Below, piece after piece: positions 20,038 through 50,963 of a stretch of DNA of 64,000 nucleotides (its first letter is position 1; the number at the start of each line of letters is the position of its first letter). Made by a program: the position numbers and the translations under genes. The stretch comes from Bacteroidota bacterium (GTDB lineage Bacteria; Bacteroidota; Ignavibacteria; UBA10030). The stretch lies in contig JAKAJH010000009.1 of the NCBI GenBank assembly GCA_021813905.1, forward strand, positions 7,346 to 71,345. The letters run 5' to 3'. Under the pieces are notes generated by a model. That model was not told the DNA's origin. It did not search any database and saw nothing but the letters and a program-made list of their open reading frames with translations.

Positions 20038-20717
20038 CGACGGTGCCTCTGCGCGCTTCGGCGTTGTGCCGGAAATCACGGAAGAGCGCCGGCGCATCGA
20101 CCGGTCCAGGTCGCCGGGGAAGACGAAGTTCCGGCGGAGGATCACCCGGACCGAGGTGGGGCATCCGCGGGTATGTGCCGGGATGCTGGCACTGTCCGAA
20201 GTGAAATGTTCCCCGGATCGCCCGTGGCACGCGATGCCGGGGGACCCTGTTCAATGATTCACAAGGACGCAGCGTTGTTCCAGTGTGAGGTCAAGTCCTG
20301 CGCAACAGAACTCTGTCTAACCCCGCCAGATCCGGAAGGAAGCAACGGTCGACACTTCGTTTTGTGTGACGCAGGGGCGCTTGACCTCTTTTTTTGTCCA
20401 ACGCCACACGACTGTCGCGTGACCTTTACGGCCTGACCCGTCGGCCAGCGCGGGTTGCGCAAATGCACGGGCCAAACTCATGCTGCCAGCAGCATTCACT
20501 CTTCTCACTTTCATTCTTATCATCAGCCTGATGCGTCAGGGGGAAACTCGCGCGTGTCGCGAATTGGCGCATGTGCCCGGACGACCCGGAACAACACGAC
20601 ACCAAGTGTATGCCCACCGAGGATGGGTCCTCTCCTCGTACGGGACTGTTCTCCGTCGGACCGAACGGCTCCATGCCCCGTCCCTTCGTCATCGGCTGAA
20701 GTGGAAACGGTCTCCGT
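20038..20717 (+). promoter_or_regulatory. Long (~680 nt) non-coding leader upstream of the RNase E/G gene; candidate autoregulatory 5' UTR
   Basis: No credible ORF on either strand. Several GC-rich inverted repeats are visible. RNase E genes in other bacteria carry long structured autoregulatory leaders. Confidence 0.3.
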
Positions 20718-22364
20718 ATGAAGAAAGACATCCTCATCAATTCCACGGCGAACGAACACCGTATCGCCATTCTTGAAGACGGAAAACTCGCTGAGCTCTT
20801 CGTCGAAGCCCCCGGCAAAGAGCGGAACGTCGGCGACATCTACCTCGGACGCGTCGCGAAAGTGATGCCCGGTATCCGGGCTGCGTTCGTGGATATCGGC
20901 TTTAGCCAGGACGCCTTCCTTCATTTCTCCGACATCGGTTCCATCGACGAATTCAACGCAATGTTCGATGAGGACGACGATGAAGAGGAAGAGAACGGCT
21001 CCGGCACCGCTCCGGCCGCCGCGCCCCAGCAGGCAACGGCAGGCGAACCGCAGGCCGAATCTCACGAACCCCCGGCCGACACCGCGGTCAAAGAACCTCA
21101 CTCCGGGAAACCGGACGGCCAGCATCATCATCACCACCACGACGTGAACCTGCAGCGGGGCCAGGATATTCTGGTTCAGATCATCAAGGAGCCGCAGGGG
21201 AAGAAGGGTGTACGCGTGCGCTCGGCCCTGTCGCTGCCCGGCCGCTTCCTCGTACTCATCCCGTTTGACGGCAAGATCGGCGTCTCGAAAAAATTCGCGA
21301 ATTTCAAGGAGAAACGCCGCCTCCGAAAGATCGTTCGCTCGCTCCTCCCGCAGGGATTCGGCGCCATCATCCGCACGGTCGCGGAGGGAAAGGACGAGGA
21401 ACTGATCAAGCAGGATCTGGAAGAGCTCGTCAAGACGTGGCGCACGATCGAGAAGAACGTCAAGGCCGAAAAGGCGCCCGCCCTCGTCTATAAGGATATG
21501 AATACGACCTCCAGTGTCATCCGCGACCTGTTCCAGGACGTCGTGGAGCACGTGGTCGTGGACGACAAGAAGATGTTCAAGGAGGTGCGGGCCTACGTGC
21601 AGTGGATGTCGCCCGACATGGTGGACCGGGTCGAATTCTACAAAGGCCGCGAGCCGATCTTCGACAAGTACGGCGTCGAGAAAGACATCCAGACCCTGTT
21701 CAGCAAGAAGGTGTGGCTCAAGAGTGGCGGCTATCTCTTCATCGAACGCACCGAAGCGATGACCGTCATCGACGTCAACAGCGGACGATACGCCGCCAAG
21801 CGCGAGCAGGAGCTCAACTCGCTTCGCACCGATCTGGAGGCCGCCCGGGAGATTTGCCGGCAGCTGCGTCTGCGCGACTTCGGCGGCCTCGTCGTGATCG
21901 ACTTCATCGACCTCGAGGATGAGAAGAACCGGAAGAAGATCTACGACGAGATGAAGAAGGAGCTGCGTCGCGACCGCGCGAAGGTCACGGTGCTGCCGAT
22001 GACGGAGTTCGGCATCGTGCAGATGACGCGGCAGCGCATCCGCCAGGGCGTGCAGCTGAGCTTCAGCGAAACGTGCCCGACCTGTGGCGGCACGGGCATG
22101 GTGCAGTCGAAGAATACCACCGCGAACCAGATCGAACGCTGGATCAAGCGGTTCAAGAGCGGCAGCCGTGAGTTCCGGCTGGAGTTGCATGTGAATCCGG
22201 CCATTGCCGACATCCTCGCCAAGGGCACGATCAGCCGGATCACGCGCATCCAGTTCAAGTTCTTCGTCAAAGTGAAACTGGTGCAGGAGCCGTCCATGGC
22301 GCCGGACGAGTTCCGCTTCATCTCGGTTCGCCAGAAGAAAGACATCACCGACCAGTACAAGTGA
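20718..22364 (+). CDS. rng: RNase E/G-family endoribonuclease
   Basis: S1 N-terminus ([26 protein letters not shown]...[23 protein letters not shown]), RNase E/G catalytic core ([11 protein letters not shown]) and CPTCGGTG zinc link. A ~70-aa acidic/His-rich low-complexity insertion is present. Confidence 0.9.
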
Positions 22365-22380
22365 GCGACAGGACATCCGC

Positions 22381-23028
22381 ATGAAATTCTTCATCGACAC
22401 AGCGAACATCCGGGAGATCCGCGAGGCGGCAAGCCTCGGGATCCTTGACGGCGTGACGACCAACCCCAGCCTGGTGGCGAAGGAAGGCAGAGAGTTCCGG
22501 CCGCTCCTCGAGGAAATCTGCTCCATCGTGGACGGACCCATCAGCGCGGAGGTCGTTGCCACGGAGATGTCGGCGATGATGGCGGAAGCCCGCTCGCTCG
22601 CGGCGATCCACAAGAACATCGTCGTCAAGGTGCCCCTCACGCTCGACGGACTCAAGGCGGTGAAGGCGCTGAAGCAGGAAGGGATCCGCTGCAACGTGAC
22701 ACTATGCTTCTCGCCGACGCAGGCGCTCATGGCTGCGAAGGCGGGGGCCACTTTCATCAGTCCGTTCATCGGCCGGCTGGATGACATCAGCCAGGACGGG
22801 ATGGAGCTGGTCCGACAGATCGTGATGATCTACCGCAATTACCGGTTCGACACCGAGGTACTCGTGGCGAGCGTGCGGCATCCGATGCACGTGGTTCAGG
22901 CGGCGATGATCGGCGCCGATGTCTGCACGATGCCGTTCAAGGTGATCGAGCAGCTCGTCCGCCATCCGCTGACCGATATCGGCCTCGAGAAGTTCCTCGC
23001 CGACTGGAAGAAAGGAAACGTGAAATAG
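22381..23028 (+). CDS. tal: Transaldolase-like / fructose-6-phosphate aldolase (short Tal type)
   Basis: [16 protein letters not shown]...GVTTNPSL...KVPLT with the Schiff-base Lys region. 215 aa. Confidence 0.9.
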
Positions 23029-40199: not shown

Positions 40200-42251
40200 A
40201 TGTCTCTGAAATTCTCCCTGCCCGCGACGGCACTGTGGCTCGTCTGCACCCTTTCGGCTCAGGATGTGCCTCAACTCCCGAAGCGGTCGACTGACGACAA
40301 TACAAAATACACCACGGTCGGCAACATCTCGATCACGGTTACGAACTTTGGCGTGATCGGCAACGGATTCAAGCCGTTCCCCGGTCCACCGTCATTTCAG
40401 TACCCCCGCGGTTCCGGCATCGAACATCTGTTCGTCGGCGGTCTGTGGGTCGGCGCCTCCACACCGACCGGGATTCATGTGACCACCGGCGCGGTGGACA
40501 TTTCGTCGCTCCGGAGCGGTGTATCGGAGGGATTCGAATTTACGACGGGCGTTGATTCGCGGGTCATCGAACGCTCGTCGCTCCTCGACAACCGGTTCTA
40601 CAGTCCGTCGGCGATCAGTCACCAGGACTTTCTGGCCGACTTTACCGACACCAATACGACCAACCCGAACCAGAACAACGAACCGATTCCGAACCACGTG
40701 CCGCTCGGCATCAACGTGCACATGGAATCGTACGCGTTCAACTTCGCGTTCGCGGACAATTTTGTGATCTTCAACTATTGGATCAAGAACGTCAGCGGCG
40801 CCTCGCTCGACAGCGTGTATGTCTCACTGTGGGGCGACATCGTGGTGCGGAACACCAATATCACTCCGCCCACCGTCGGCTCGCCTTTTTACAGCCACGG
40901 GGCGCTGGGATACATCGACACGCTCAATCTCGCCTACGCATACGACTATGACGGCGACGGCGGACTGGCGGACAGTTACGGCGCGTTCAAATTCCTCGGT
41001 TCATCGCCGTACCGGAACACCACGACGTATCAGGTGTGGCAGTTCCGGAATTCGAGCGATCCGACGTATTTCTCTCCCGCGACCGATATTGACAAGTACA
41101 GCAAAATGACGAACGGGCTCCTGCCCAGTCAGGTCACTTCTATCCCGAAACCGAGCAACTTTATGACGTTGCTCTCAGTCGGCCCGTTTTCGCACATCGC
41201 GCCGGGCGATTCGGTGAACGTGGTCTTTGCGCTGATGGCGGCGAAAATGGTGAACTGGAGTGTTCCGAAGCCGGAGGGTCCCGACATCGCGAGCAACCGC
41301 ACGAATCTGAACTTAGCGTCGTCGTGGGCTCAGCGCACATATAACGGTGAAGATCGGAACGGCAACGGGGTGCAGGATTCAAATGAGGTATGGACGGACA
41401 ACGGACGTCCGAAGCGCTACTTCCTGCCGGCTCCACCGGCGGCGCCGCATGTGAAGGTCGTGCCGAATGACAAATCCGTCGAGATCTACTGGGATGATGT
41501 GTCCGAGCGATCCGTGGATCCGATCACAAACCTGAAGGATTTTGAAGGGTATCGCATCTACGGCACGAATGCCGGATTCGACCTGACGGCGTCGCAGAAT
41601 ATCCTCGCGAATCTGGTGATGTTGGGCGAATACGATCGCGCCGATGACGACATCGGATACAATACGGGCTTCGGCGGCATTCGCCTGGCACAGGCGGTGC
41701 AATTTCCGCCCGATACCACGCACTACGTGTATCGGTTCGAGGTGCCGCATGTGCTCAACGGGTGGCAGTACGGTTTTGCCGTGACCGCTTTTGACTCCGG
41801 GGATGCGAGCACGAATCTGCAAAGTCTGGAAAGCAGCAAGCTTCAAACGCTTCAACGGGTGCTTCCCGGCACGCCTCCCGCGAAGGACGCCTCGGTGCAG
41901 CCGGGCGTGTATCCGAATCCGTACTATGCGCACGCGTACTGGGATGGCGGCGTGGAGCGCCAGCGGAAGCTGTATTTCTACAACATTCCGGCGCATGCCG
42001 AGATCCGGGTGTACACGCTGGCGGGCGATCTCGTGGATGTGTTCGAGCATGACGCGGCGACGTACAATGCATCGGATATCCAGTGGTTCCAGACCTACGC
42101 CGACGGCACGCAGCAGCTGGCCGGTGGCGAGCACGCCTGGGATCTGATTACGAAGAATGATCAGGCCGTCGCGACGGGGCTGTATCTGTTTACCGTCAAG
42201 AATCTCGATACGGGCAATATGCAGCGTGGCAAGTTCCTTGTGATCAAGTAG
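40200..42251 (+). CDS. Large secreted hypothetical protein with a divergent T9SS-CTD-like C-terminal domain
   Basis: Signal peptide MSLKFSLPATALWLVCTLSAQ. No catalytic motif recognized. The last ~110 aa (GVYPNPYYAHAYWDG...KLYFYNIPAHAEIRVYTLAGDLVDVFEH...GEHAWDL...ATGLYLFTVKN...GKFLVIK) follow the spacing and consensus of T9SS sorting domains. Confidence 0.55.
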   Translation: MSLKFSLPATALWLVCTLSAQDVPQLPKRSTDDNTKYTTVGNISITVTNFGVIGNGFKPFPGPPSFQYPRGSGIEHLFVGGLWVGASTPTGIHVTTGAVDISSLRSGVSEGFEFTTGVDSRVIERSSLLDNRFYSPSAISHQDFLADFTDTNTTNPNQNNEPIPNHVPLGINVHMESYAFNFAFADNFVIFNYWIKNVSGASLDSVYVSLWGDIVVRNTNITPPTVGSPFYSHGALGYIDTLNLAYAYDYDGDGGLADSYGAFKFLGSSPYRNTTTYQVWQFRNSSDPTYFSPATDIDKYSKMTNGLLPSQVTSIPKPSNFMTLLSVGPFSHIAPGDSVNVVFALMAAKMVNWSVPKPEGPDIASNRTNLNLASSWAQRTYNGEDRNGNGVQDSNEVWTDNGRPKRYFLPAPPAAPHVKVVPNDKSVEIYWDDVSERSVDPITNLKDFEGYRIYGTNAGFDLTASQNILANLVMLGEYDRADDDIGYNTGFGGIRLAQAVQFPPDTTHYVYRFEVPHVLNGWQYGFAVTAFDSGDASTNLQSLESSKLQTLQRVLPGTPPAKDASVQPGVYPNPYYAHAYWDGGVERQRKLYFYNIPAHAEIRVYTLAGDLVDVFEHDAATYNASDIQWFQTYADGTQQLAGGEHAWDLITKNDQAVATGLYLFTVKNLDTGNMQRGKFLVIK

Positions 42252-42285
42252 TCCAACTCAACATCAACCAGAGAGGGAGAGTCCT

Positions 42286-44628
42286 ATGAAACATCGATGG
42301 CTCCAGTTTGCGGTAGCGGTTCTGGTGCTCGCGGGTCTGTCGGTGCCGGCGTCTGCGCAGACGATCGGTCACCCGGCGACGATTCCGCAGCTTCAGACTG
42401 TTCCGATGGATTCACTCTATGCCCTTGACACTCTGCAGGCGGCATCGGCAGGAAAGTACAAGGATAAGTCGCCGTACTGGAACGGCTCCGATTCGAAAGC
42501 GGACACCGTGATCGTGACCGGTGTCGTGATCGTGAAGCCGCGCATTCTGACGTATACGCTGGCGCGCTACAACATCTTCATCCAGGACACGACGACCGGT
42601 CAGCTGTGGGCAGGTCTGAACGTCCTGACGAATGACACATCGACGACCGCCCAGGGTACCGGCATCACGGCGCTCGATAGCGGCATGGTTGTCCGGCTGA
42701 CGGGTCGCGTTACGGAATACGGCAGCCAGAACAACAGCTTGACCGAAATGTTCATGTACAACGTCGGCTTCTTCGAGTCCGTGGTGACGGCGGAAATCCT
42801 GAGCGTCGGCGGCAACCGTCCGAACCCGGTCCCGGTGACGGTGGATAGTTTCGCGGTCGGTACCAAGCCGATGCCGTCGCGCGGAGAGAAGTACGAAGGG
42901 ATGTATGTGACGATTCCGAATGTCACGGTCATCTCCGTCGATGTTTCTTCCGGTCGGTTCACCTTTGCGGACTCGGCGGGAAACCAGATGACGATGTATG
43001 ACGGTTCGGGTTGGTACACATATCGCGGACACAAGATCACCGGTTCGAAGTACTCGGCGCCTCCCGTCGGCACGAAGCTGAAGTACATCCGTGGCGTCGT
43101 CATCGTGCAGACGAAGAGCAACACCTGCGGCGACTATGAAGTCATGCCGTTGTATCCGGGACCGCGTGAGCTTGGAAAAGCGACCTCCTATCCGGGTGAT
43201 GTCGTGATCGATAAGTTTGCCCCGTCGATCACCACGATCCGCCGCAATCCGACACCGCCGAAGTCCACGGACAACGTGATCGTCACGTTCCAGGCGAAGG
43301 ACCTGAACACGAACGGGAATGTGGACAGTGCCTTTGTCGCGGTGCAAAAAGGCCTGAGCGGCGCATGGGTGAAGACGAAGGTGGCGACTCCGTCCTTTGT
43401 TGGCGCGGACACGCTGTACTCCTTCACGGTGGGAACGACACCGGCGGACAGCATCGTCAGTTACTACGTCGAGGCATACTCGGGCGGCATCTACGGCGCA
43501 TCACCGGACCCGGCCATTCCGTACTACTACGTGGTCCGGGATAACGGATACTCCATCTACGACGTGCAATACACGCCGTACAGTAACGGTCTCCCTGGCA
43601 TGCAGTACGACACGCTGACGGTGAAGGGCGTGGTCGTGGCGGATACGTCGGACATCAAAGAGATCCCGAAAAGCGGTGCGCAGGCAAATCGGCCGTCGCT
43701 CTGGATTGCATCCGCTCCTGGAAAGTGGAACGGAGTCTGCGTCTGGGGCGCCAGCGCTTCGGTAGGCGTCGATACGCTGCAGAAGGGCGACAGTGTCTCC
43801 GTGCGCGGTGTCGTGTATGACTACAACTCGCGAACGGTGCTGAAGGTCGTCTCCTGCACGCTGATCCAGCGCGGCGTGCCGGTCCCCGGTCCTGCGACGA
43901 TGAGCATCTCCGGAAAGGGATCGGTGAGCTATCAGATCAGCAATCCTCCGGTGAACGGCGATCCGATCTTCGAGGCCTGGGAAGGCGTGCTCGTTCGCAT
44001 CAACAATCCGTATCTCGTGGTTCGCAATGCGGATGACCTTACGAACGGCAGCAGCTCCTGCTTCGGCGAGTTCCTGATCAGCTCGAGTTCGTATCTCAGC
44101 AATCCGTACGGACTGCGCGTGGATGATAACGGCATCAACAACTTCTACGCGGACACGAATTCGTACTACGCAACAACGAAGTACAACTCGGATCATCCGC
44201 TCACGCCCGGTCTGAAGACCACGCTGATCCCGATCGGGTCAAAGCTGACGTTCCTCCAGGGTATTCTGGATTACTCATACAGCAACTACAAGCTCGAGCC
44301 GCGGACGAATGCGGACTTCGGCACGATCACCAGCGTGGTCCTGCAGGATCCCATGGCGATCGCCCGGACGTTCGAGCTCAGCCAGAACTACCCGAATCCC
44401 TTCAACCCCTCGACGGAGATCCGCTACAGCGTTCCGATGTCCGGCCGGGTATCGCTGAAGGTGTTCAACCTGCTCGGCCAGGTGGTCGAGACGCTTCTCG
44501 ATCGTGACATGGTGGCCGGTTCATACGTCGTGCGGTTCGACGCGTCCCGACTTGCCACCGGCGTGTATTTCTATCAGCTCCGCGCCGGCGATGTGGTCAT
44601 GACGAAGAAGATGGTTCTGATGAAGTAA
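42286..44628 (+). CDS. Large secreted multi-module protein with canonical T9SS type A C-terminal sorting domain
   Basis: Signal peptide MKHRWLQFAVAVLVLAGLSVPASAQ. The body has repeated beta-rich modules (VTGVVIVKP..., VKGVVVADTSD..., VRGVVYDYNSRTVLKV...). The C-terminus NYPNPFNPSTEIRYSVPMSGRVSLKVFNLLGQVVETLLDRDMVAGSYVVRFDASRLATGVYFYQLRAGDVVMTKKMVLMK matches the Por/T9SS sorting domain consensus. Confidence 0.8.
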   Translation: MKHRWLQFAVAVLVLAGLSVPASAQTIGHPATIPQLQTVPMDSLYALDTLQAASAGKYKDKSPYWNGSDSKADTVIVTGVVIVKPRILTYTLARYNIFIQDTTTGQLWAGLNVLTNDTSTTAQGTGITALDSGMVVRLTGRVTEYGSQNNSLTEMFMYNVGFFESVVTAEILSVGGNRPNPVPVTVDSFAVGTKPMPSRGEKYEGMYVTIPNVTVISVDVSSGRFTFADSAGNQMTMYDGSGWYTYRGHKITGSKYSAPPVGTKLKYIRGVVIVQTKSNTCGDYEVMPLYPGPRELGKATSYPGDVVIDKFAPSITTIRRNPTPPKSTDNVIVTFQAKDLNTNGNVDSAFVAVQKGLSGAWVKTKVATPSFVGADTLYSFTVGTTPADSIVSYYVEAYSGGIYGASPDPAIPYYYVVRDNGYSIYDVQYTPYSNGLPGMQYDTLTVKGVVVADTSDIKEIPKSGAQANRPSLWIASAPGKWNGVCVWGASASVGVDTLQKGDSVSVRGVVYDYNSRTVLKVVSCTLIQRGVPVPGPATMSISGKGSVSYQISNPPVNGDPIFEAWEGVLVRINNPYLVVRNADDLTNGSSSCFGEFLISSSSYLSNPYGLRVDDNGINNFYADTNSYYATTKYNSDHPLTPGLKTTLIPIGSKLTFLQGILDYSYSNYKLEPRTNADFGTITSVVLQDPMAIARTFELSQNYPNPFNPSTEIRYSVPMSGRVSLKVFNLLGQVVETLLDRDMVAGSYVVRFDASRLATGVYFYQLRAGDVVMTKKMVLMK

Positions 44629-44641
44629 TTGTTCACCCCGA

Positions 44642-44672
44642 GGGAGGAGAAGGGCCTGTCCCTTCTCCTCCC
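44642..44672 (+). terminator. Perfect 13-bp GC-rich hairpin immediately after the T9SS-cargo gene (terminator/attenuator or RNA-processing stem)
   Basis: GGGAGGAGAAGGG (44642-44654), loop CCTGT, then CCCTTCTCCTCCC (44660-44672). Followed by CGGATATTTCAGG, which is only a weak U-tract. Confidence 0.45.
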
Positions 44673-44693
44673 CGGATATTTCAGGATACTCTC

Positions 44694-46076
44694 GTGCGGT
44701 TCCTCTCGTCACTCGCGATCCTCATCGTCCTTCTTGTCAGCGGATGCTCGGAGCATTTCCCGAATCAGCCGCTCGGCAACCTTCCGCCGGAGACATTCCT
44801 GGCGCTGCGTCCCGACAGCACGCTGCGCCGGACGGCCAGCCAGCAGGATATTCACTGGTGGGGCGAGGATCCGGACGGATTCGTTGCCGGCTATTACTTT
44901 TCATTCGACAGCACGCACTGGACGTTCACGACGGCGAATGACAGCCTCTTCGGTCTCAAGCTGAATACGACCGATACCACATACTCGTTCTTTGTCAAGG
45001 CGGTGGACAACGAAGGAGCCGAGGATCCGACTCCCGCGTCGCTCCGGTACCCGATCATGAATACACCGCCGACGGTCAGCTTCGTCCTGAAATCCGATGT
45101 GCCCGACACGACGTATCCGGTTGCCAGCTTCCAGTGGGTGGGACTTGATATCGACGGGGATGAGACCATCACGAGCTTCTGGTACGCCCTCGACGATACC
45201 TCCAATCCGAACAACTGGAAGAGCGTTCCGGGATACGCGCGCAGCGTGACGTTGTACAAAGCCGACGGTCTGGTGGAAGGCGATCACACCTTCTATCTCC
45301 GCGCGCGCGATGTGGCCGGTGCCTGGAGCAAGACAATCCAGATGCCCGATACGGTGAAGCGGACGTGGCATGTGCGCGAGCCGAAGGGCGCCTTCCTGAT
45401 CATCGACGATTACCAGCCGGCCGATGCCGCCGCCGGATACTACGCGACGATGTTCGACACGCTGACGGTCAACGGACGGCATCTTGGCAGTCAGGATGTG
45501 TGGGATATCAAAAAGGGTGCGTCCCCGACGAAGCGCGGTGATCTTGTCCCGGCGCTTATCAATCCGACGTTCATCGAAACCCTGAAACTGTTCAAGTATG
45601 TGTTCTGGTATGCGGATAACAACCCGAGCCTCGAAATCGCGCAGGCGTCTCTGGGCGCGTTTACACGCGCCGGCGGGAAGGTTCTGTTCTCCAGCTCGTT
45701 CCCGGAGCTGAGCAGCGGACAGGGCGGCGTCGGCGATTTCGCACCGATCGATAATACCGAGCCGTCGTATTTTACCACGATCCTGATGTCGGGGGACACG
45801 CTCCAGGCGGTGGATCCGATCTATCCCACGCTGGTACGGGACGCCAATCCCACGATCTATCTCTTTCCACGCGGACTTCTGCCGAAGGTCAATGCACGCG
45901 TGATCTATCAGATGCAGTCCTCATCCCGATGGAGCGGGCAGCCCGTGATGGGCGTGCAGGACGGTGATTCTCCGAGCTTTGTACTGATGGCAGTGCTGCT
46001 CCACCGGTTCGGTCCTCCGGCGAGCGCGGCGGAGTTCTTCCGCACGGTATTCGGGAAGGAGTTTGGCGCGCAATGA
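44694..46076 (+). CDS. Hypothetical lipoprotein (460 aa)
   Basis: Lipobox LLVSGC. No recognizable catalytic motif. ATGA overlap with the downstream TonB-dependent-receptor-like gene. Confidence 0.6.
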   Translation: MRFLSSLAILIVLLVSGCSEHFPNQPLGNLPPETFLALRPDSTLRRTASQQDIHWWGEDPDGFVAGYYFSFDSTHWTFTTANDSLFGLKLNTTDTTYSFFVKAVDNEGAEDPTPASLRYPIMNTPPTVSFVLKSDVPDTTYPVASFQWVGLDIDGDETITSFWYALDDTSNPNNWKSVPGYARSVTLYKADGLVEGDHTFYLRARDVAGAWSKTIQMPDTVKRTWHVREPKGAFLIIDDYQPADAAAGYYATMFDTLTVNGRHLGSQDVWDIKKGASPTKRGDLVPALINPTFIETLKLFKYVFWYADNNPSLEIAQASLGAFTRAGGKVLFSSSFPELSSGQGGVGDFAPIDNTEPSYFTTILMSGDTLQAVDPIYPTLVRDANPTIYLFPRGLLPKVNARVIYQMQSSSRWSGQPVMGVQDGDSPSFVLMAVLLHRFGPPASAAEFFRTVFGKEFGAQ

Positions 46077-48883
46077 CCCGGAGAATCGGCAGAACGCTCC
46101 TCCTGGTGCTCGCGCTGGCGTTCATGATGCCGGCACTGTCGGCGCAGGAAAAAGGCAGCATCAAAGGACTTGTGAAAGACGCCAAGACCAAGGAAGGTCT
46201 TCCGGTCGTCAACGTCAAAGTGAAGGGGACGTACTATGGCGCTGTGACGGACATGGACGGCAATTACATCATTGCGAACGTCAATCCCGGCAGCTACGTG
46301 GTCGAGTTCACGCTTCTCGGCTATACGGCCGTTCAAGTGACGGACGTGCGCGTCCAGGCGGGCAAGTCGACGGAGCTGAATCAGAACCTCTCCGAGACAG
46401 TGCTCTCGCTCGGACAGGAAGTCGTCGTGGTCGGCGAGAAACCGCTGTTGAACGTGGAAGAAACCTCGAGCAAGCGCTCGGTGACCGCGGATGACCTCAA
46501 GGCCACCGCCGTCGTAAACGTGAAGGATGTGGTGGGTCAGCAGGTGGGCGTCGTCGAAGCCGATAACGAGGTGCATATCCGCGGCGGTCGTGCGAGCGAA
46601 AATGCATACTTGCTTGACGGGATCTCGGTGCAGGATCCGTTGGCAGGCACGGGCTTCGGGCTCCAACTCAGCGCGGATGCCGTCCAGCAGATCGAGGTGA
46701 TCACGGGCGGATACAATGCGGAGTATGGACAGGCAACGTCGGGCGTCGTGAACGTGCAATTGAAGGACGGATCCGACCGGTTCGAGGGAAGCGTCGGGGT
46801 GAAGCGGGATAACCTGGGCATCTTCCCGGAAACCTTCAAGCCCTTCAACTCGGAGAGCTACGAGGGATCGCTCAGCGGTCCAATTCCAGTTTCGGCGATC
46901 ACCGATCTTGTGGGTCTCGGCGATATCGGCACCATGAGCTTCTTCACGAGCGCCTATGCGGGCTTTACGGACGGCTTCATGGGCAAGACCGCGCATCGGC
47001 TGAATTCATCGACATTCTACGGGACGCGGTTCACCCCTCGCGAAGAGAACAATCTCTTCTTCCTCGGGAAAGTGACGTGGAAGATCACGCCGCTGGTTCG
47101 CCTGGCATATTCCTACACGCATTCGGTGGCGATCAACCAGAATTCCCAGTCATTGCAGACCAACCTGGAATACGTCGAGCCCAGTCCCGGATTTCAGTAC
47201 GAGTTCGAAAACATCCTCGACAACGCAAACACGTACACGCACAACAACCAGATTCATACGCTGTCGTTGACGCACACGCTGTCGAACTCCATGTTCTATG
47301 AGCTGCGGCTGTCGCACTTCTTCACGAATCTCCGCGCGGATGCAAACGGAACGCCATACAACCAGTACCGCGAGCCGAAGGACATCGTCACGTTCCCGCT
47401 CTCGTATTACAATCTTGGCCACGACACGGTCGGCGTGATTCCGGGCGACGGTTTCTACGATTTCGGCAATGCGTTCACGTGGCACGATCACTTCGTGGCC
47501 GAGAATACGGTGAAGTTCGATCTGACAAAGAACTTCTCCGACAAGAATAAGTTCAAGACCGGTGTCGAGGCGACGTTCCAGGAGATGCAGAACGTCGATA
47601 TCTATGAGCCGTGGATCGGGACACTCGGACTGAACAACGACATCTATCACGTCTACCCGGCGTTCGGTGCGCTCTACGCACAGGATAACATCACGTTCAG
47701 CGGCATGATCCTGAACTTCGGCCTGCGGTTCGATTACTGGTTCCCGGGCAAGTATGTGGATGATGCGGTGAACAATCCGGCGGTCATCACCATCCCCGAT
47801 CAGGTGCGGCAGCACTATCTTGATCATACCTATACGTTGTTCGGGCGCCACTGGAAGGGCCGCCTCAGCCCGCGCCTCGGCATCTCGCATCCGGTCTCGG
47901 ACAATCAGATGCTGTATTTCTCGTACGGCCATTTTTCAAAGCGGCCGAAGCCTCAATTTCTCTATGCGAAGCTCAGTCCGAGCTCGGCCCAATCGACCTT
48001 CCAGAAGTTCGGCAATCCGGATCTGAATCCGGAGACGACCGTGGCCTATGAGCTCGGCCTCCAGACGCAGTTCACGAATGACGACGTGCTCAGCGTGACG
48101 GTGTACTACAAGGACATCTTTGATTACGTGTCGACACGCACGGCCCGGATCACCTCGGCCCGACTTGCCAGTACGAATTACGTCACGTACGTGAACCAGG
48201 ACTACGCGCGCTCGCGCGGTGTCGAGGTCGAATACCGGAAGCGAATCGGCCGCTGGTTCCGGGGGACGGCCTCCGGCTCGTATTCAATCACGACGGGCAA
48301 GAGCTCCTCGGCCGATCAGGGACTGCTCATCGCGCGCGGGCTGGAAGATGAGTCGGTGAAAGAGAATTACGTGGTTTGGGATCGTCCGCTCCAGTTCACG
48401 GTCACGTCAACGGTGACGGTGGAGAAGGGGAAAGGGCTGTTCGGCTTTGGCAAGAACATCCTGGACAACCTTTCGGTCTACGCACGGGCGTTCTATGAAT
48501 CCGGCAAGCGGTATACGCCGTACATCTACGACGGCGTGCTGACGAGCAACGGCCGGCCTGACTACATTCAGGACCGGAATAACCTGCTGGGCGGCATCGG
48601 TGAAAATTGGTTCTGGATCGACATGAACATCGAGAAGTACTTCGATGTGGCCGGTCTGGAATTCACCTTCTCGGTCCAGGTGAAGAACATCCTGAACAAC
48701 AGGAACTCCACGATTATCAATCCGGTGACCGGTCGAGCCTATGAGTACGGCGATCCCACGCCCACCAACTGGAACGATCCGCTCTATCCGTCATTGCAGG
48801 CTCCGGTGTCTCCATTTCCGTACAATCCCGCGCGCTATCTCGCGCCGCGGGAGATGATCCTTGGACTTTCGGTGAAATTCTGA
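46073..48883 (+). CDS. TonB-dependent-receptor-like outer-membrane protein with N-terminal carboxypeptidase-regulatory-like domain
   Basis: Signal peptide. CarboxypepD_reg-like segment (GSIKGLVKDAKTKEGLPVVNVKVKG...TDMDGNYIIANVNPGSYVVEFTLLGY). Plug region (NVEETSSKRSVTADDLKA...HIRGGRASENAYLLDGISVQDPL). Long beta-barrel ending in F (LGLSVKF). Confidence 0.85.
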   Translation: MTRRIGRTLLLVLALAFMMPALSAQEKGSIKGLVKDAKTKEGLPVVNVKVKGTYYGAVTDMDGNYIIANVNPGSYVVEFTLLGYTAVQVTDVRVQAGKSTELNQNLSETVLSLGQEVVVVGEKPLLNVEETSSKRSVTADDLKATAVVNVKDVVGQQVGVVEADNEVHIRGGRASENAYLLDGISVQDPLAGTGFGLQLSADAVQQIEVITGGYNAEYGQATSGVVNVQLKDGSDRFEGSVGVKRDNLGIFPETFKPFNSESYEGSLSGPIPVSAITDLVGLGDIGTMSFFTSAYAGFTDGFMGKTAHRLNSSTFYGTRFTPREENNLFFLGKVTWKITPLVRLAYSYTHSVAINQNSQSLQTNLEYVEPSPGFQYEFENILDNANTYTHNNQIHTLSLTHTLSNSMFYELRLSHFFTNLRADANGTPYNQYREPKDIVTFPLSYYNLGHDTVGVIPGDGFYDFGNAFTWHDHFVAENTVKFDLTKNFSDKNKFKTGVEATFQEMQNVDIYEPWIGTLGLNNDIYHVYPAFGALYAQDNITFSGMILNFGLRFDYWFPGKYVDDAVNNPAVITIPDQVRQHYLDHTYTLFGRHWKGRLSPRLGISHPVSDNQMLYFSYGHFSKRPKPQFLYAKLSPSSAQSTFQKFGNPDLNPETTVAYELGLQTQFTNDDVLSVTVYYKDIFDYVSTRTARITSARLASTNYVTYVNQDYARSRGVEVEYRKRIGRWFRGTASGSYSITTGKSSSADQGLLIARGLEDESVKENYVVWDRPLQFTVTSTVTVEKGKGLFGFGKNILDNLSVYARAFYESGKRYTPYIYDGVLTSNGRPDYIQDRNNLLGGIGENWFWIDMNIEKYFDVAGLEFTFSVQVKNILNNRNSTIINPVTGRAYEYGDPTPTNWNDPLYPSLQAPVSPFPYNPARYLAPREMILGLSVKF

Positions 48884-49869
48884 TGCGCCGCACACTTCTC
48901 ATCGTATTCATTGTCGCGCTGATCGTCGGATGTGTCCCGGCGCAGGCGCAGATCGTTCCTGTTCTCGGCGCGCAGCGGGCCGGTACCTCGACCGCCCAGT
49001 TCCTCAAGATCGCTGTTGGTGCACGGGCGGCGGCAATGGGAGAAAGCTTTGTGGCCGTGGCGAATGACGCGTCGGCGCTCTTCTGGAACCCGGCGGGCAT
49101 CACCCAGTTCACGCAGACGGAGGTGATCCTGGCGCACACGACATGGGTGGTGGATGTGCAGCACGAATTTGCCGGCCTGGTGTATCACCTCACTCCCGAC
49201 GATGCCGTCGGCGTGTCGGTGACATCCGTGCACACCGATGACATGCAGGTGACAACGGAGCTTCAGCCCCGGGGGACAGGAGACTACTTCAGCTACGGCG
49301 ACCTCGCTATCGGAGTCACGTACGGCCGCCGCATGACGAATCAGTTCAGCTTCGGAGCGACCGTTCGATATCTTGAAGAGACGATGGCCTCGCTGAAGAT
49401 GCGCGGGGTGGTGCTCGATTTCGGAACGTATTACTGGACCGGATTAGGAACGTCCCGGTTCTCGGCGGTGGTGACGAATTTCGGCAATCAGATCGGACCG
49501 ACCGGCACGGCACCGCAGGTCGGAGGAGGTACCGTCACGTCGTTCCAGCAGTACCCGCCGCCGACGATGTTCAAATTCGGTTTCGCGCTCGATCCGATCA
49601 AAGATGAGTCCAACATTCTGACGACATCGATCCAGTTGAATCACCCCAACGACAACTCCGAGAACGTCGGCCTCGGTGTTGAATACGGATGGATGAATGC
49701 GTTCTTCCTGCGGGGGGGATATAAACTGAATGTCGAGGAACAGGCGCTTTCCTTCGGTGCCGGCGTCGCGGCTTCACTGGGCATCGCCCATGTGGCCGTC
49801 GACTACGCCTATGCCTCGTTTACGAATCTCGGTCCGACCCATCGGATCTCAATGCTGGTGACGTTGTGA
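48883..49869 (+). CDS. PorV/PorQ-like (FadL-like) outer-membrane beta-barrel protein
   Basis: Signal peptide. N-terminal motif GARAAAMGESFVAVANDASALFWNPAGI, as I recall for the PorV/PorQ family. Alternating beta-strand pattern. C-terminal hydrophobic/aromatic end. Start overlaps the upstream stop by 1 nt (TGATG). Confidence 0.55.
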   Translation: MRRTLLIVFIVALIVGCVPAQAQIVPVLGAQRAGTSTAQFLKIAVGARAAAMGESFVAVANDASALFWNPAGITQFTQTEVILAHTTWVVDVQHEFAGLVYHLTPDDAVGVSVTSVHTDDMQVTTELQPRGTGDYFSYGDLAIGVTYGRRMTNQFSFGATVRYLEETMASLKMRGVVLDFGTYYWTGLGTSRFSAVVTNFGNQIGPTGTAPQVGGGTVTSFQQYPPPTMFKFGFALDPIKDESNILTTSIQLNHPNDNSENVGLGVEYGWMNAFFLRGGYKLNVEEQALSFGAGVAASLGIAHVAVDYAYASFTNLGPTHRISMLVTL

Positions 49870-50963
49870 GACAATTCGCGCCCCTTGCTCTGCTGCTTTT
49901 GATGCTGGCCGCCTGCCAGGAATATCGCTTCCCTGTGGAAACGCTGCCTCAGGGCGGTCAACGGACCGGCCAGATCGGCGACACGCTCTATGTTCAGCAA
50001 TATCCGAATTGGGAGGGATTCAACCAACCCCAGGCCATTGCTGTTGGATTTGAACCCCTGCTCTATGTCGCCGACACGGACAACGACCGGGTCGTCATGC
50101 TCGATCTGGCCGGACGCGTCATCGGCTATTCACCGATGATCAAGCATCCGGTGGCAATCGCGGAGGATCGGAGACTGCAGCTGCTCGTCTGCGCCGAATT
50201 CGATACGCTTCTGGCGGGACAGAGCCATCCGACCACCTTCGGAGCGATCTATCGGATTGACCTTGTGGCCACGGGCCATGACATCACGACCGCCACTCCG
50301 GTCCGCGTGTTCACGGAGTTGAGTGACTCGAGCCGGCGGTACAGCGCCGTCGCGACGATGTACGACAATTCATACTACGTGACGCGGGTAGGGCCGAAGA
50401 ACGCTTTGACGAGCTTTGACCGGGATAACGCCATTCTGCTGTTTGCGAAGAATGATTCGCTCATCACCCCGGTGACGGCAAACTTCTCTCCGGATGGCAC
50501 CGGCCTCCTGTCGATCCATGCCGCCACCGGCATCGCCACGATGCCGACGGGCAAGAGCGTGGAATTCGTCTTTTCCCAGGTGGAATCGAACTCCGGGATC
50601 ACTCCGCTGTACAAAGTACAATGGATCCGGCTCGTCTCGGAAGGACAGACGACCAACTACCTGTCGAAGTTCTATCCGAGCGTGGATGGCGATATAGATC
50701 TGCTGCGCATCAACCGGTTCACCCATCCGACGGGCGTCACGCTTGATCCGTCCGGGAATCTCTACGTGACCGATGCAGGAACCGACAGTCTCTATCGCTT
50801 CACGCCGCGGGGTGTGGAAGCGTACTCCTTCGGTGGGACCGGATCGGGGGAACGGCAGTTCCGGCAACCGGCCGGGGTGGCGTACTTCGACAAAACAGTG
50901 TATGTGGCGGACAAGGGAAACAACCGCATTGTTCGCTTCAAACTTTCGACAGATCTGCAGTGA
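49866..50963 (+). CDS. NHL-repeat beta-propeller lipoprotein
   Basis: Lipobox LLMLAAC. NHL repeats LYVADTDNDRVVMLD, LYVTDAGTDSLYRFT, VYVADKGNNRIVRFK. GTG start in a GTGA overlap with the upstream gene. Confidence 0.75.
   Translation: MRQFAPLALLLLMLAACQEYRFPVETLPQGGQRTGQIGDTLYVQQYPNWEGFNQPQAIAVGFEPLLYVADTDNDRVVMLDLAGRVIGYSPMIKHPVAIAEDRRLQLLVCAEFDTLLAGQSHPTTFGAIYRIDLVATGHDITTATPVRVFTELSDSSRRYSAVATMYDNSYYVTRVGPKNALTSFDRDNAILLFAKNDSLITPVTANFSPDGTGLLSIHAATGIATMPTGKSVEFVFSQVESNSGITPLYKVQWIRLVSEGQTTNYLSKFYPSVDGDIDLLRINRFTHPTGVTLDPSGNLYVTDAGTDSLYRFTPRGVEAYSFGGTGSGERQFRQPAGVAYFDKTVYVADKGNNRIVRFKLSTDLQ

What the first reader, a model, noticed from the sequence alone, without database searches (positions are those of the whole stretch)
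41920..42251. Divergent T9SS-like C-terminal domain on the 683-aa secreted protein
The C-terminus reads GVYPNPYYAHAYWDG...KLYFYNIPAHAEIRVYTLAGDLVDVFEH...GGEHAWDL...ATGLYLFTVKN...GKFLVIK. It shows the same ordered landmarks as T9SS CTDs: YPNP, a hydrophobic beta-strand, a G-x-L-V strand, W-D/N, a GLY-hydrophobic strand and a terminal K-hydrophobic-V-hydrophobic-K. The domain is longer and clearly diverged from type A. Two adjacent cargo proteins with different CTD flavours next to a PorV-like gene suggests a cargo-specific recognition variant.
Basis: inference. Interest (0 to 1): 0.55.

Follow-up and report, generated by a model that had tools for sequence, protein, structure and literature searches.

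The report
Extended T9SS sorting domain with partner barrel
The last 115 residues of this 683-residue exported protein are a real but unusually long relative of the type IX secretion sorting domain; the long version is found on only one uncharacterised protein family, and that family is nearly always encoded beside its own PorV/PorQ-type outer-membrane barrel, so the tail may act as a permanent anchor rather than a removable tag.

Summary
ORF 40200-42251 (+) encodes 683 aa, and every quoted landmark is present. The quoted text starts at nt 41904 (G569), not 41920.

The tail is homologous to T9SS C-terminal domains (CTDs):
- Profile-profile alignment to Pfam-labelled type A CTDs is end-to-end (P 1.8e-5; shuffled controls at best 0.014).
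- It needs two loop expansions of about 10 and 19 aa.
- A confident AF2 model (pLDDT 93) has PorZ and PorU CTDs as its three best matches in the whole PDB.
- The window sequence itself fails every curated CTD cut-off.

The tail is not a modular tag. In 92 sequences it occurs once each, always on the same family: an N-terminal beta-supersandwich, an FN3-like region, then the tail.

That family has no Pfam or NCBIfam model. It is present in at least 582 species genomes (the best 80 are labelled Ignavibacteria or Bacteroidota) and in Cloacimonadota.

It sits in a conserved operon with a canonical type A CTD protein, a lipoprotein, a TonB-dependent-receptor-like barrel, a PorV/PorQ-family barrel below all equivalog cut-offs, and an NHL protein.

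Best reading: an export signal that also docks the protein on its cognate barrel, as PorZ does on PorQ. Retention is inferred, not shown.

Verdict: a new variant of a known kind, of moderate interest.

The parts
40200..42251 (+). Gene for the 683-aa protein (called T683 here), founding member in this window of an uncharacterised family
   Evidence: ORF. No Pfam or NCBIfam family. More than 2326 homologues, all 'hypothetical'. Relatives in at least 582 species genomes.
40200..40259 (+). Predicted Sec signal peptide (aa 1-20, MSLKFSLPATALWLVCTLSA|QD)
   Evidence: Read directly from the sequence. In the AF2 model there is a helix at 6-18 followed by a low-confidence stretch at 17-30. No signal-peptide predictor was available.
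40302..41399 (+). N-terminal beta-supersandwich domain (about aa 35-400)
   Evidence: AF2 model. Weak Foldseek similarity to the N-terminal domains of GH94 phosphorylases and dextran dextrinase, TMq 0.25-0.29. Present in 60 of the 64 long top hits that carry the tail.
41442..41864 (+). FN3-like region (about aa 415-555)
   Evidence: AF2 strands. Foldseek hits to FN3 arrays. Present in 63 of 64 long top hits.
41904..42248 (+). Extended T9SS-type C-terminal domain (aa 569-683), the subject of the finding
   Evidence: HMM hits to PorZ, PorU, type A and type B CTD models. (hhalign to a type A profile, with controls). (AF2 pLDDT 93.3). (Foldseek: PorZ, then PorU).
41910..41921 (+). YPNP (aa 571-574), equivalent to type A motif B at the first strand
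   Evidence: Invariant in 61 full-length homologues; P-N-P is invariant in 50 diverse tails. Aligns to the YPNP of type A CTDs.
41937..41966 (+). Loop expansion 1 (about aa 580-589, YWDGGVERQR) between strands 1 and 2
   Evidence: Shows as a 10-residue insertion relative to the type A profile. W-D-G and R-x-R-K are invariant within the close family. Length and sequence vary in the wider family.
42024..42026 (+). Gly609 at the strand 3 / strand 4 turn (TLAGDLV)
   Evidence: Invariant in all alignments. Aligns to the Gly of type A 'NLLGQVV'. This glycine and loop are needed for secretion of RgpB (PMC11285876).
42063..42119 (+). Loop expansion 2 (about aa 622-640, YNASDIQWFQTYADGTQQL) between strands 4 and 5, containing a short helix
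   Evidence: Shows as a 19-residue insertion relative to the type A profile. Helix at tail residues 62-67 in the AF2 model.
42177..42185 (+). G-L-Y (aa 660-662), equivalent to type A motif D
   Evidence: Invariant. Aligns to the G-V-Y of type A.
42228..42248 (+). C-terminal strand GKFLVIK (aa 677-683), equivalent to type A motif E / 'motif C-t.'
   Evidence: G-K-F is nearly invariant in 50 diverse tails. Aligns to KKMVLMK of the neighbour. A lysine in the last strand is conserved and required in known CTDs (PMC11285876).
42286..44628 (+). Neighbouring 780-aa protein with a canonical type A CTD (aa 702-777, nt 44389-44625)
   Evidence: PF18962 1.2e-8; TIGR04183 40.2 bits against a cut-off of 23. 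Present downstream in 51 of 51 informative loci.
44694..46076 (+). 460-aa predicted lipoprotein (LLVSGC lipobox), no known family
   Evidence: Sequence; no family hits. Syntenic in 50 of 51 loci. Its stop overlaps the next start by 4 nt.
46073..48883 (+). 936-aa TonB-dependent-receptor-like barrel (CarboxypepD_reg + Plug + barrel)
   Evidence: Syntenic in 50 of 51 loci. Also lies beside distant family members.
48883..49869 (+). 328-aa PorV/PorQ-family barrel, the proposed cognate partner of the extended tail
   Evidence: NF033709 216.7 bits (cut-off 90), but below the PorQ, PorV and PorV2 equivalog cut-offs. PF19572 1.8e-10. Seen in 44 of 51 loci; in six of the other seven the lipoprotein and TonB-receptor-like genes are shifted several kb downstream, so its expected position falls beyond the fetched 10 kb. 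Adjacent or near in three distant family members.
49866..50963 (+). NHL-repeat protein, last gene of the conserved cluster (public gene callers start it at about nt 49902)
   Evidence: PF01436 7e-16. Syntenic in 44 of 51 loci. Gene call.

Best explanation
Residues 569-683 are a T9SS C-terminal domain of the type A lineage. It keeps the seven-stranded Ig-like sandwich and the positions known to matter for secretion: YPNP, the Gly at the strand 3/4 turn, G-x-Y, and the terminal K-containing strand. Two loops are greatly expanded (strand 1-2 and strand 4-5). This makes it about 115 aa long and pushes it below the curated type A and type B model cut-offs.

Proposed mechanism:
1. The protein is exported by Sec.
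2. It crosses the outer membrane through the T9SS by means of this domain.
3. The tail then stays attached, docking the protein non-covalently on the PorV/PorQ-family barrel encoded three genes downstream. PorZ is held on PorQ, PorU on PorV, and type B cargo on PorP/SprF proteins in the same way.
4. The result is a surface complex with the co-encoded TonB-dependent-receptor-like barrel, lipoprotein, NHL protein and a conventional type A cargo.

Shown here: homology and fold; terminal position; restriction to one protein family; conserved synteny with a distinct PorV/PorQ-family barrel.

Inferred: use of the T9SS, non-cleavage, physical binding to that barrel, and a role of the expanded loops in partner specificity.
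For: Homology by sequence:
- The window tail hits only CTD-type models, all weakly: PorZ C-end 1.9e-4, type B 0.047, CHU_C 0.2.
- Across 24 close tails: PorZ end 24/24, TIGR04183 23/24, PF18962 20/24, CHU_C 21/24.
- Across 50 diverse tails: PorZ end 48/50 (best 9.4e-10), TIGR04183 39/50, PorU 19/50, type B 7/50.
- hhalign of 119 tails against 120 Pfam-labelled type A CTDs: probability 78%, P 1.8e-5, collinear 5-117 to 10-88 with two insertions. Twenty shuffled controls gave P of 0.014 or worse.

Fold:
- AF2 pLDDT 93.3, pTM 0.86, seven strands plus one helix.
- Foldseek ranks 1-3 in the PDB are PorZ 5m11 (E 1.3e-5, TMq 0.62, rmsd 3.2 A over 116 columns) and PorU 6za2 chains A and B.
- FlgD and the translocon-bound NucA CTD (8glk_D, TMt 0.69) also appear.

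Position and specificity:
- The match lies at the extreme C-terminus in nearly all full-length hits among the listed 150 of 3353 representative hits.
- 60 of 64 long hits share the N-terminal domain and 63 of 64 share the FN3 region.
- In the window plus 91 loci there is exactly one extended tail per sequence, against 100 canonical type A tails. Only 9 ORFs were hit by both models.

Synteny:
- The six-gene order is kept in Ignavibacteria at 50-72% identity: 51/51, 50/51, 50/51, 44/51 and 44/51 for the five downstream genes.
- Distant members (993-1136 aa, including Cloacimonadota) sit next to TonB-dependent-receptor-like and/or PorV-family genes, one with ExbB-ExbD-ExbD-TonB.
- All four partner barrels tested score 187-230 bits on NF033709 but fail the PorV, PorQ and PorV2 equivalog cut-offs.

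Precedent:
- Uncleaved CTDs are longer (PorZ 96 aa, PorU 108 aa) than processed ones (67-88 aa) (PMC11285876).
- PorZ and PorU are anchored through PorQ and PorV (PMC12365241).
- Cognate PorV-like barrels have been proposed to protect CTDs from cleavage (PMC10202324).
Against: - No T9SS core gene (SprA/Sov, GldK-N/PorK-N, PorU) lies in the 64-kb window. The rest of the genome could not be searched, so use of a T9SS rests on the CTD proteins, the PorV-family gene and literature statements that Ignavibacteriota may have T9SS.
- The window sequence fails every curated CTD cut-off.
- Top structural hits to PorZ and PorU do not indicate non-cleavage. A cleaved CTD (mirolase) also finds them first (PMC11285876).
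- The tail is better conserved than its passenger domain (66% against 54%). This does not discriminate, because the neighbour's ordinary type A CTD shows the same pattern (49% against 33%).
- The variable 7-10 residue linker before the tail could hold a PorU site.
- FadL/PorV-like barrels can be structural parts of unrelated complexes, such as BamG in the Bacteroidota BAM complex (PMC12578637). Adjacency therefore does not prove CTD binding.
- The operon holds two CTD proteins, and either could be the barrel's client.
Confidence: 0.6

Rival explanations
1. Ordinary cleavable type A sorting signal with lineage-specific long loops. The protein is a normal T9SS cargo: the general PorV shuttles it, PorU removes the tail, and the protein is released or lipid-anchored. 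The nearby PorV/PorQ-family barrel serves another purpose in the operon.
For: Collinear alignment to type A with every key motif kept. 39 of 50 diverse tails hit TIGR04183. A variable linker precedes the tail. Cleaved CTDs also resemble PorZ and PorU most closely (PMC11285876). Inserting the PorZ hairpin into RgpB did not block its cleavage (PMC11285876).
Against: The long form is never seen on other passenger domains in 92 sequences or among the top representative hits, unlike a generic exchangeable tag. The loop expansions persist across phyla. At about 115 aa, its length exceeds the 67-88 aa of processed CTDs and even the uncleaved ones (PMC11285876). It keeps tight synteny with a distinct PorV/PorQ-family barrel.
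Confidence: 0.27
2. Not a secretion signal. The tail is a structural or ligand-binding Ig-like (FlgD-Ig type) domain that only shares ancestry with CTDs. The protein reaches its site by another route, or stays periplasmic as part of the TonB-dependent-receptor-like complex.
For: FlgD and other Ig-like domains appear among structural and HMM hits. No T9SS core genes are in the window. FadL-like barrels can be scaffolds unrelated to secretion (PMC12578637).
Against: Invariable extreme C-terminal position. The secretion-critical motifs are retained: YPNP, strand 3/4 Gly, G-x-Y, terminal K strand. The best sequence and structure matches are T9SS CTDs rather than FlgD. The adjacent gene has a bona fide type A CTD, and the barrel is PorV/PorQ family by a curated cut-off.
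Confidence: 0.08
3. A type B CTD relative that depends on a PorP/SprF-type carrier.
For: TIGR04131 hits 12 of 24 close tails (best 7e-4) and CHU_C hits 21 of 24 (best 5e-4). Type B cargo is typically encoded next to its carrier and is not cleaved (PMC10202324, PMC12618676).
Against: Type B matches cover only the last two thirds of the tail, and only 7 of 50 diverse tails hit the model. The tail starts with the type A YPNP motif. The partner barrel is PorV/PorQ family, with no TIGR03519 PorP/SprF hit in the window. No profile-profile test against a type B alignment could be run.
Confidence: 0.05

Closest known systems
T9SS type A C-terminal sorting domain (TIGR04183 / PF18962)
   Same: Extreme C-terminal position on a protein with a signal-peptide-like N-terminus. 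Seven-stranded Ig-like sandwich. YPNP, strand 3/4 Gly, G-x-Y and terminal K-containing strand in the same order. Collinear profile-profile alignment.
   Different: About 115 aa instead of about 70-88. Two expanded loops (about 10 and 19 extra residues, the second with a helix). Below the curated cut-offs. Confined to one protein family instead of being shuffled among many passenger domains.
Uncleaved CTDs of the attachment-complex proteins PorZ (on PorQ) and PorU (on PorV) of Porphyromonas gingivalis (PDB 5M11, 6ZA2)
   Same: Best sequence-profile match (PorZ end in 48 of 50 tails; PorU in 19 of 50) and best structural matches. Longer than processed CTDs. Encoded with, or functionally paired to, a PorV/PorQ-family barrel.
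   Different: The passenger domain is unrelated: no beta-propellers and no C25 peptidase (PorZ model 14.6 bits against a cut-off of 260). The extra length sits in the strand 1-2 and strand 4-5 loops, not the strand 5-6 hairpin of PorZ and PorU (PMC11285876). The partner barrel is neither a PorQ nor a PorV equivalog. Retention is untested.
Type B CTD and cognate PorP/SprF carrier pairs (TIGR04131 / PF13585; Flavobacterium johnsoniae, P. gingivalis PG1035)
   Same: The logic is the same: a CTD subclass genetically linked to its own FadL-like barrel, which anchors or targets the protein after export (PMC9143113, PMC12618676).
   Different: Sequence relationship is weak and partial. The partner is PorV/PorQ family, not PorP/SprF. 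The tail has the type A YPNP start.
FlgD Ig-like domain (PF13860)
   Same: Same general sandwich. Weak HMM hits (10 of 24 tails) and Foldseek hits (3osv).
   Different: FlgD_ig is not a terminal sorting module. The CTD models and structures match better.

Membership tests
T9SS type A CTD (TIGR04183 / PF18962) | Scores at or above the curated model cut-off (23 bits TIGR04183; 27 bits PF18962) | tested here: not met
   The window tail gives no TIGR04183 or PF18962 hit at E up to 10. Relatives hit only weakly: 23/24 and 39/50 for TIGR04183 (best 1.7e-5 and 2.1e-6) and 20/24 for PF18962. The neighbour passes with 40.2 bits.
T9SS type A CTD (TIGR04183 / PF18962) | Homology detectable by profile-profile comparison over the whole domain | tested here: met
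   hhalign probability 78%, P 1.8e-5, 77 collinear columns covering 5-117 against 10-88. Twenty shuffled controls gave P of 0.014 or worse.
T9SS type A CTD (TIGR04183 / PF18962) | Seven-stranded Ig-like beta-sandwich at the extreme C-terminus | tested here: met
   AF2 pLDDT 93.3 with seven strands. PorZ and PorU CTDs are the top PDB matches; the NucA CTD also matches. Terminal position in representative hits.
T9SS type A CTD (TIGR04183 / PF18962) | Conserved motifs B (YPNP), strand 3/4 glycine, D (G-x-Y) and E / C-terminal K strand | tested here: met
   These positions are invariant or nearly invariant. They align to the same type A positions. Their functional relevance comes from PMC11285876 and PMC10202324.
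T9SS type A CTD (TIGR04183 / PF18962) | Modular: the same tail class occurs on many unrelated passenger domains in one genome | tested here: not met
   60 of 64 and 63 of 64 long hits share the same N-terminal and FN3 regions. There is one extended tail per locus, always on this family.
T9SS type A CTD (TIGR04183 / PF18962) | Removed by PorU, with A-LPS attachment or release | not testable with these tools
   Needs mass spectrometry or N/C-terminal mapping of the mature protein.
T9SS substrate in general | Genome encodes the T9SS core (SprA/Sov, GldK-N/PorK-N, PorV, PorU) | not tested
   Only a PorV/PorQ-family gene is in the window. The one TPR protein hit to PorW is far below cut-off (30 bits against 250). 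The literature says a T9SS may be present in Ignavibacteriota and Cloacimonadota (PMC11285876, PMC5837995).
T9SS substrate in general | N-terminal Sec signal peptide | tested here: inconclusive
   The sequence has a typical n-h-c pattern with LSA|QD, and AF2 gives a helix at 6-18. No predictor was available.
T9SS type B CTD (TIGR04131 / PF13585) | Scores at or above the curated cut-off (35 bits; 27 bits) | tested here: not met
   Window tail: 13.8 bits (TIGR04131) and 12.2 bits (CHU_C), covering only the last two thirds. Hits in 12 of 24 close tails and 7 of 50 diverse tails.
T9SS type B CTD (TIGR04131 / PF13585) | Genetically linked PorP/SprF-family carrier (TIGR03519) | tested here: not met
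   The linked barrel is NF033709 PorV/PorQ family; there is no TIGR03519 hit in the window. One distant partner has a 22-bit hit against a cut-off of 90.55.
PorZ (NF052228) | Full-length match including the two beta-propeller domains (cut-off 260 bits) | tested here: not met
   Only residues 569-683 match model positions 674-757, at 14.6 bits. AF2 shows a supersandwich plus FN3, with no propeller.
Cognate 'CTD plus PorV-like barrel' anchoring pairs (PorZ-PorQ, PorU-PorV, type B-PorP) | CTD-bearing protein and a dedicated FadL/PorV-like barrel are co-inherited | tested here: met
   44 of 51 Ignavibacteria loci; in six of the other seven the lipoprotein and TonB-receptor-like genes are shifted several kb downstream, putting the barrel's expected position beyond the fetched flank. 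Three of three distant members with visible downstream sequence. The barrels form a set outside the PorV, PorQ and PorV2 equivalogs.
Cognate 'CTD plus PorV-like barrel' anchoring pairs (PorZ-PorQ, PorU-PorV, type B-PorP) | The CTD is retained and physically binds the barrel | not testable with these tools
   Needs co-purification, cross-linking, or a complex prediction. The structure-prediction tool takes single chains only.

The most novel reading that the evidence does not exclude
The extended tail and its PorV/PorQ-family neighbour would be a third class of T9SS signal/carrier pair, beside type A with PorV and type B with PorP/SprF. It would be widespread outside the classical Bacteroidota, in Ignavibacteria and Cloacimonadota. 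The uncleaved tail would permanently plug a surface protein onto a dedicated barrel that works with a TonB-dependent transporter. That makes a T9SS-assembled, TonB-powered surface uptake machine that uses a CTD-barrel dock where Bacteroidota Sus-like systems use lipoproteins.
Probability: 0.35. Interest if true: 0.72.

Novelty: new variant of a known kind. Interest (0 to 1): 0.55.

Why it matters
T9SS sorting signals are currently sorted into types A, B and C, almost entirely from Bacteroidota. Two questions are open: what decides whether a CTD is cut off or kept, and how a cargo is routed to a particular PorV-like barrel (PMC11285876, PMC10202324, PMC12618676).

This locus offers a natural, phylogenetically broad test case. 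Within one operon there is a canonical type A CTD protein, a sharply distinct long CTD restricted to one protein family, and a PorV/PorQ-family barrel that is neither PorV nor PorQ.

If the long tail is the barrel's dedicated, uncleaved ligand, comparing the two tails would point to the determinants of carrier specificity and of protection from the sortase. It would also tie type IX secretion to TonB-dependent transport in Ignavibacteria and Cloacimonadota.

There is a practical point too. Current models (TIGR04183, PF18962, TIGR04131) miss this tail, so T9SS substrate counts in these phyla are underestimates. The roughly 700-aa family (thousands of members, at least 582 species genomes) has no family model at all.

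Tried and rejected
1. PDB sequence searches with the tail profile and with the full-length profile found nothing, even at E of 10 and 1.
2. The first hhalign, using only the 24 close tails (Neff 1.8), aligned just 24 columns at 7% probability. It needed the broader 119-sequence tail profile.
3. The reversed type A control scored P 3.6e-4, but over only 12 columns. This is the palindrome-like PNPY/YPNP match and was dismissed.
4. Whole-protein Foldseek gave only low-TM matches (0.25-0.29) to GH94-type N-terminal sandwiches and FN3 arrays. No function could be assigned to the passenger domain.
5. I expected a modular tag shared by many cargoes. This was rejected: the tail is family-specific.
6. 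I tried 'tail better conserved than passenger domain' as evidence for retention. It was rejected as non-discriminating, because the neighbour's ordinary type A CTD behaves the same way.
7. I considered that the protein is the local PorZ orthologue. Rejected: only the tail matches, and there are no propellers.
8. Type B membership is not supported.
9. Literature searches for this family, this operon, or FlgD-Ig/T9SS links found no description.
10. Promoter and terminator scans of the operon were at or below chance.
11. One operon-linked C11 peptidase tail in L091 scored similarly on both tail models. On inspection it has canonical length with no expanded loops, so it is a bridging sequence rather than a second host for the long tail.
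Full report
**1. The observation**

The quoted text begins at G569, which is nt 41904. The end coordinate is the last base of the stop codon. The N-terminus (MSLKFSLPATALWLVCTLSA|QD) reads as a Sec signal peptide; I judged this from the sequence, as no predictor was available.

The next gene, 42286-44628, carries a textbook type A CTD: PF18962 at 1.2e-8 and TIGR04183 at 40.2 bits against a cut-off of 23. The 'PorV-like gene' is 48883-49869, three genes further on. It scores 216.7 bits on NF033709 'PorV/PorQ family protein' (cut-off 90) but stays below the PorQ, PorV and PorV2 equivalog cut-offs.

**2. Is the tail a T9SS CTD?**

On its own, the window sequence fails every curated model. Its only hits are weak:
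- the C-terminal end of the PorZ model (E 1.9e-4);
- FlgD (0.043);
- type B TIGR04131 (0.047);
- CHU_C (0.2).

The picture becomes clear with relatives.

| Model | 24 close tails | 50 diverse tails |
|---|---|---|
| PorZ end | 24/24 | 48/50 (best 9.4e-10) |
| TIGR04183 (type A) | 23/24 | 39/50 |
| PF18962 | 20/24 | not scanned |
| CHU_C | 21/24 | not scanned |
| TIGR04131 (type B) | 12/24 | 7/50 |
| PorU | 6/24 | 19/50 (best 9.5e-8) |

I built a 119-sequence profile of the tail family. hhalign gives 78% probability, P 1.8e-5, and an end-to-end collinear alignment (tail 5-117 against type A 10-88). It places:
- YPNP on YPNP;
- IRVYTLAGDLV on LKVFNLLGQVV;
- ATGLYLF on ATGVYFY;
- GKFLVIK on KKMVLMK.

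It opens two gaps: about 10 residues after the first strand, and about 19 residues between strands 4 and 5. Twenty column-shuffled type A profiles reached at best P 0.014. The FN3 region of the same protein reached 0.015.

An AF2 model of the tail alone is confident (pLDDT 93.3, pTM 0.86). It shows seven strands plus a short helix in the second insertion. Against 350,542 PDB chains its three best matches are:
- the PorZ CTD (5m11; E 1.3e-5, TMq 0.62, rmsd 3.2 A over 116 columns);
- both chains of PorU (6za2; E 1.1e-4).

FlgD and the translocon-bound NucA CTD (8glk_D) appear further down.

The positions shown experimentally to matter for secretion are invariant or nearly so in the family. These are the glycine at the strand 3/4 turn and the lysine-containing last strand (PMC11285876).

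Conclusion: homology to the type A lineage of T9SS CTDs is well supported. Membership in TIGR04183/PF18962 as those models are currently drawn is not met. The relationship to type B is weak and partial.

**3. What kind of CTD?**

A search of 1.84 billion representative proteins with the tail profile gave 3353 hits at E of 0.001 or better. In the listed 150 the match lies at the extreme C-terminus in nearly all full-length hits. Contrary to what a generic tag would show, 60 of the 64 long hits also carry the same N-terminal domain, and 63 of 64 carry the same FN3-like region.

In the window plus 91 fetched loci, 92 ORFs carry the long tail: one per sequence, always this family. A further 100 ORFs carry ordinary type A tails. 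Only nine are touched by both models, eight of them with large score margins. The ninth, a C11 peptidase in L091, has canonical length with no loop expansions.

The long tail is therefore a discrete subclass welded to one protein family. The two loop expansions persist across the whole family, although their sequence and length drift.

**4. The protein and its neighbourhood**

The family has no Pfam or NCBIfam model. It has more than 2326 close homologues, all 'hypothetical', and relatives in at least 582 GTDB species genomes. The best 80 are nearly all labelled Ignavibacteria, Melioribacteraceae or unclassified Bacteroidota, with a few other bin labels.

The full-length AF2 model (pLDDT 80.5) shows a large N-terminal beta-supersandwich, an FN3-like region and the tail. 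Structural matches for the passenger domain are weak: GH94-type N-terminal domains at TMq 0.25-0.29. They do not assign a function.

The gene order is: [this protein] - [type A CTD protein] - [lipoprotein] - [CarboxypepD_reg-Plug-TonB-type barrel] - [PorV/PorQ-family barrel] - [NHL protein]. It is conserved down to 50% identity. Among 51 loci with enough downstream sequence, the five partners were found in 51, 50, 50, 44 and 44. In six of the seven loci without the last two genes, the lipoprotein and TonB-receptor-like genes sit several kb further downstream, so the expected position of the last two genes falls beyond the fetched 10 kb; in L029 none of the four distal genes was detected. The last four genes overlap start-to-stop.

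Distant family members of 993-1136 aa show the same core:
- In Candidatus Syntrophosphaera (Cloacimonadota) the order is TonB-dependent-receptor-like, ExbB, ExbD, ExbD, TonB, family protein, PorV-family barrel, then two CTD proteins.
- Others show family protein, NHL, PorV-family barrel.
- TonB-dependent-receptor-like, then family protein.
- TonB-dependent-receptor-like, family protein, PorV-family barrel, C11 peptidase with CTD.

All the partner barrels behave like the one in the window. They are clearly PorV/PorQ family (187-230 bits) but never a PorV, PorQ or PorV2 equivalog.

**5. Mechanism**

The following is known. PorU and PorZ keep their CTDs and are held on the cell surface by PorV and PorQ (PMC12365241, PMC10202324). 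Type B cargo depends on, and is anchored by, cognate PorP/SprF barrels encoded next door (PMC9143113, PMC12618676). Uncleaved CTDs are longer than processed ones (PMC11285876). Cognate PorV-like barrels have been proposed to shield CTDs from the sortase (PMC10202324).

The present case fits that pattern. It has a long, family-restricted CTD whose closest sequence and structure relatives are the PorZ and PorU CTDs, and it is co-inherited with its own PorV/PorQ-family barrel.

I therefore favour this sequence of events: Sec export, T9SS translocation through the tail, then permanent docking of the uncleaved tail on the operon's barrel. This would build a surface complex around the TonB-dependent-receptor-like protein.

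- Shown: homology, fold, position, family restriction, synteny.
- Inferred: T9SS use, retention, the binding partner, and a specificity role for the expanded loops.

**6. Caveats and rivals**

- The window holds no T9SS core genes, and I could not scan the rest of the genome.
- PorZ and PorU as top structural hits do not indicate non-cleavage, because the cleaved mirolase CTD also finds them first (PMC11285876).
- The tail is better conserved than its passenger domain (66% against 54%), but so is the neighbour's ordinary CTD (49% against 33%).
- The linker before the tail is variable and could hold a sortase site.
- FadL-like barrels can be scaffolds with no shuttle role, such as BamG (PMC12578637).

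The main rival is an ordinary cleavable type A signal with long loops (about 0.27). The minor rivals are a non-secretory Ig-like domain (about 0.08) and a type B relative (about 0.05).

**7. Novelty and score**

The domain belongs to a known superfamily, and the proposed logic has direct precedents. This is a new variant of a known kind rather than something categorically new. It is still worth attention for four reasons:
- Current CTD models miss it.
- The host family and its operon are undescribed despite being core to Ignavibacteria and present in Cloacimonadota.
- One operon contains a canonical and a divergent CTD plus a non-canonical PorV/PorQ barrel, which is a ready-made system for asking what determines carrier specificity and CTD retention.
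- It hints at a link between type IX secretion and TonB-dependent transport.

Interest 0.55.

Noticed in passing
window 40200-50963 (+); also L004-L085, L086, L089-L091: A six-gene same-strand cluster is conserved throughout Ignavibacteria: extended-tail protein, type A CTD protein, lipoprotein, TonB-dependent-receptor-like barrel, PorV/PorQ-family barrel, NHL protein. Its core trio recurs in Cloacimonadota, once with its own ExbB-ExbD-ExbD-TonB set. I found no description of it in the searchable literature.
   Followed up: partly
window 40257-40265, 42355-42363, 46139-46147: Three proteins of the cluster have signal-peptide-like N-termini whose likely cleavage site is followed by Gln (LSA|QD, ASA|QT, LSA|QE). 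This matches the 'Q-rule' reported for Bacteroidetes and the high Q-value (77%) reported for Ignavibacterium album (PMC5837995).
   Followed up: partly
window 46073-46076, 48883, 49866-49869: Start and stop codons of the last four genes of the cluster overlap (4 nt, 1 nt, 4 nt), which suggests translational coupling. Public gene callers instead start the NHL gene at about 49902.
   Followed up: no
window 40200-42251, protein residues 140-143, 240-260, 381-396: The passenger domain has invariant acidic, Gly-rich stretches (YDYDGDGGLADSY and YNGEDRNGNG) that look like calcium-binding loops, plus an invariant S-H-Q-D. No function could be assigned.
   Followed up: no
L091 8269-10374: A Peptidase_C11 protein in the same operon type has a canonical-length CTD that shares the 'RIYTVAGDLV' strand with the extended family. 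It scores about equally on both tail models (35 against 30 bits), making it a possible evolutionary bridge between the classes.
   Followed up: partly
window 42286-44628, residues 478-678: The type A CTD neighbour matches only the N-terminal, non-catalytic part of the ExeM/NucH extracellular nuclease model (E 1.7e-12, 47 bits against a cut-off of 300). It is much less conserved than the rest of the cluster (27-64% identity).
   Followed up: no
window 10956-13013 (+) and 20523-22787 (-): Two long ORFs (685 and 754 aa) have no NCBIfam match. In this 58-60% GC sequence, long spurious antisense ORFs are common, so they may or may not be genes.
   Followed up: no
window 13968-15989 (+): A 673-aa TPR protein has weak similarity to BamD, YbgF and the TPR part of PorW/SprE (30 bits against a cut-off of 250). 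This is not enough to call it a T9SS component.
   Followed up: no
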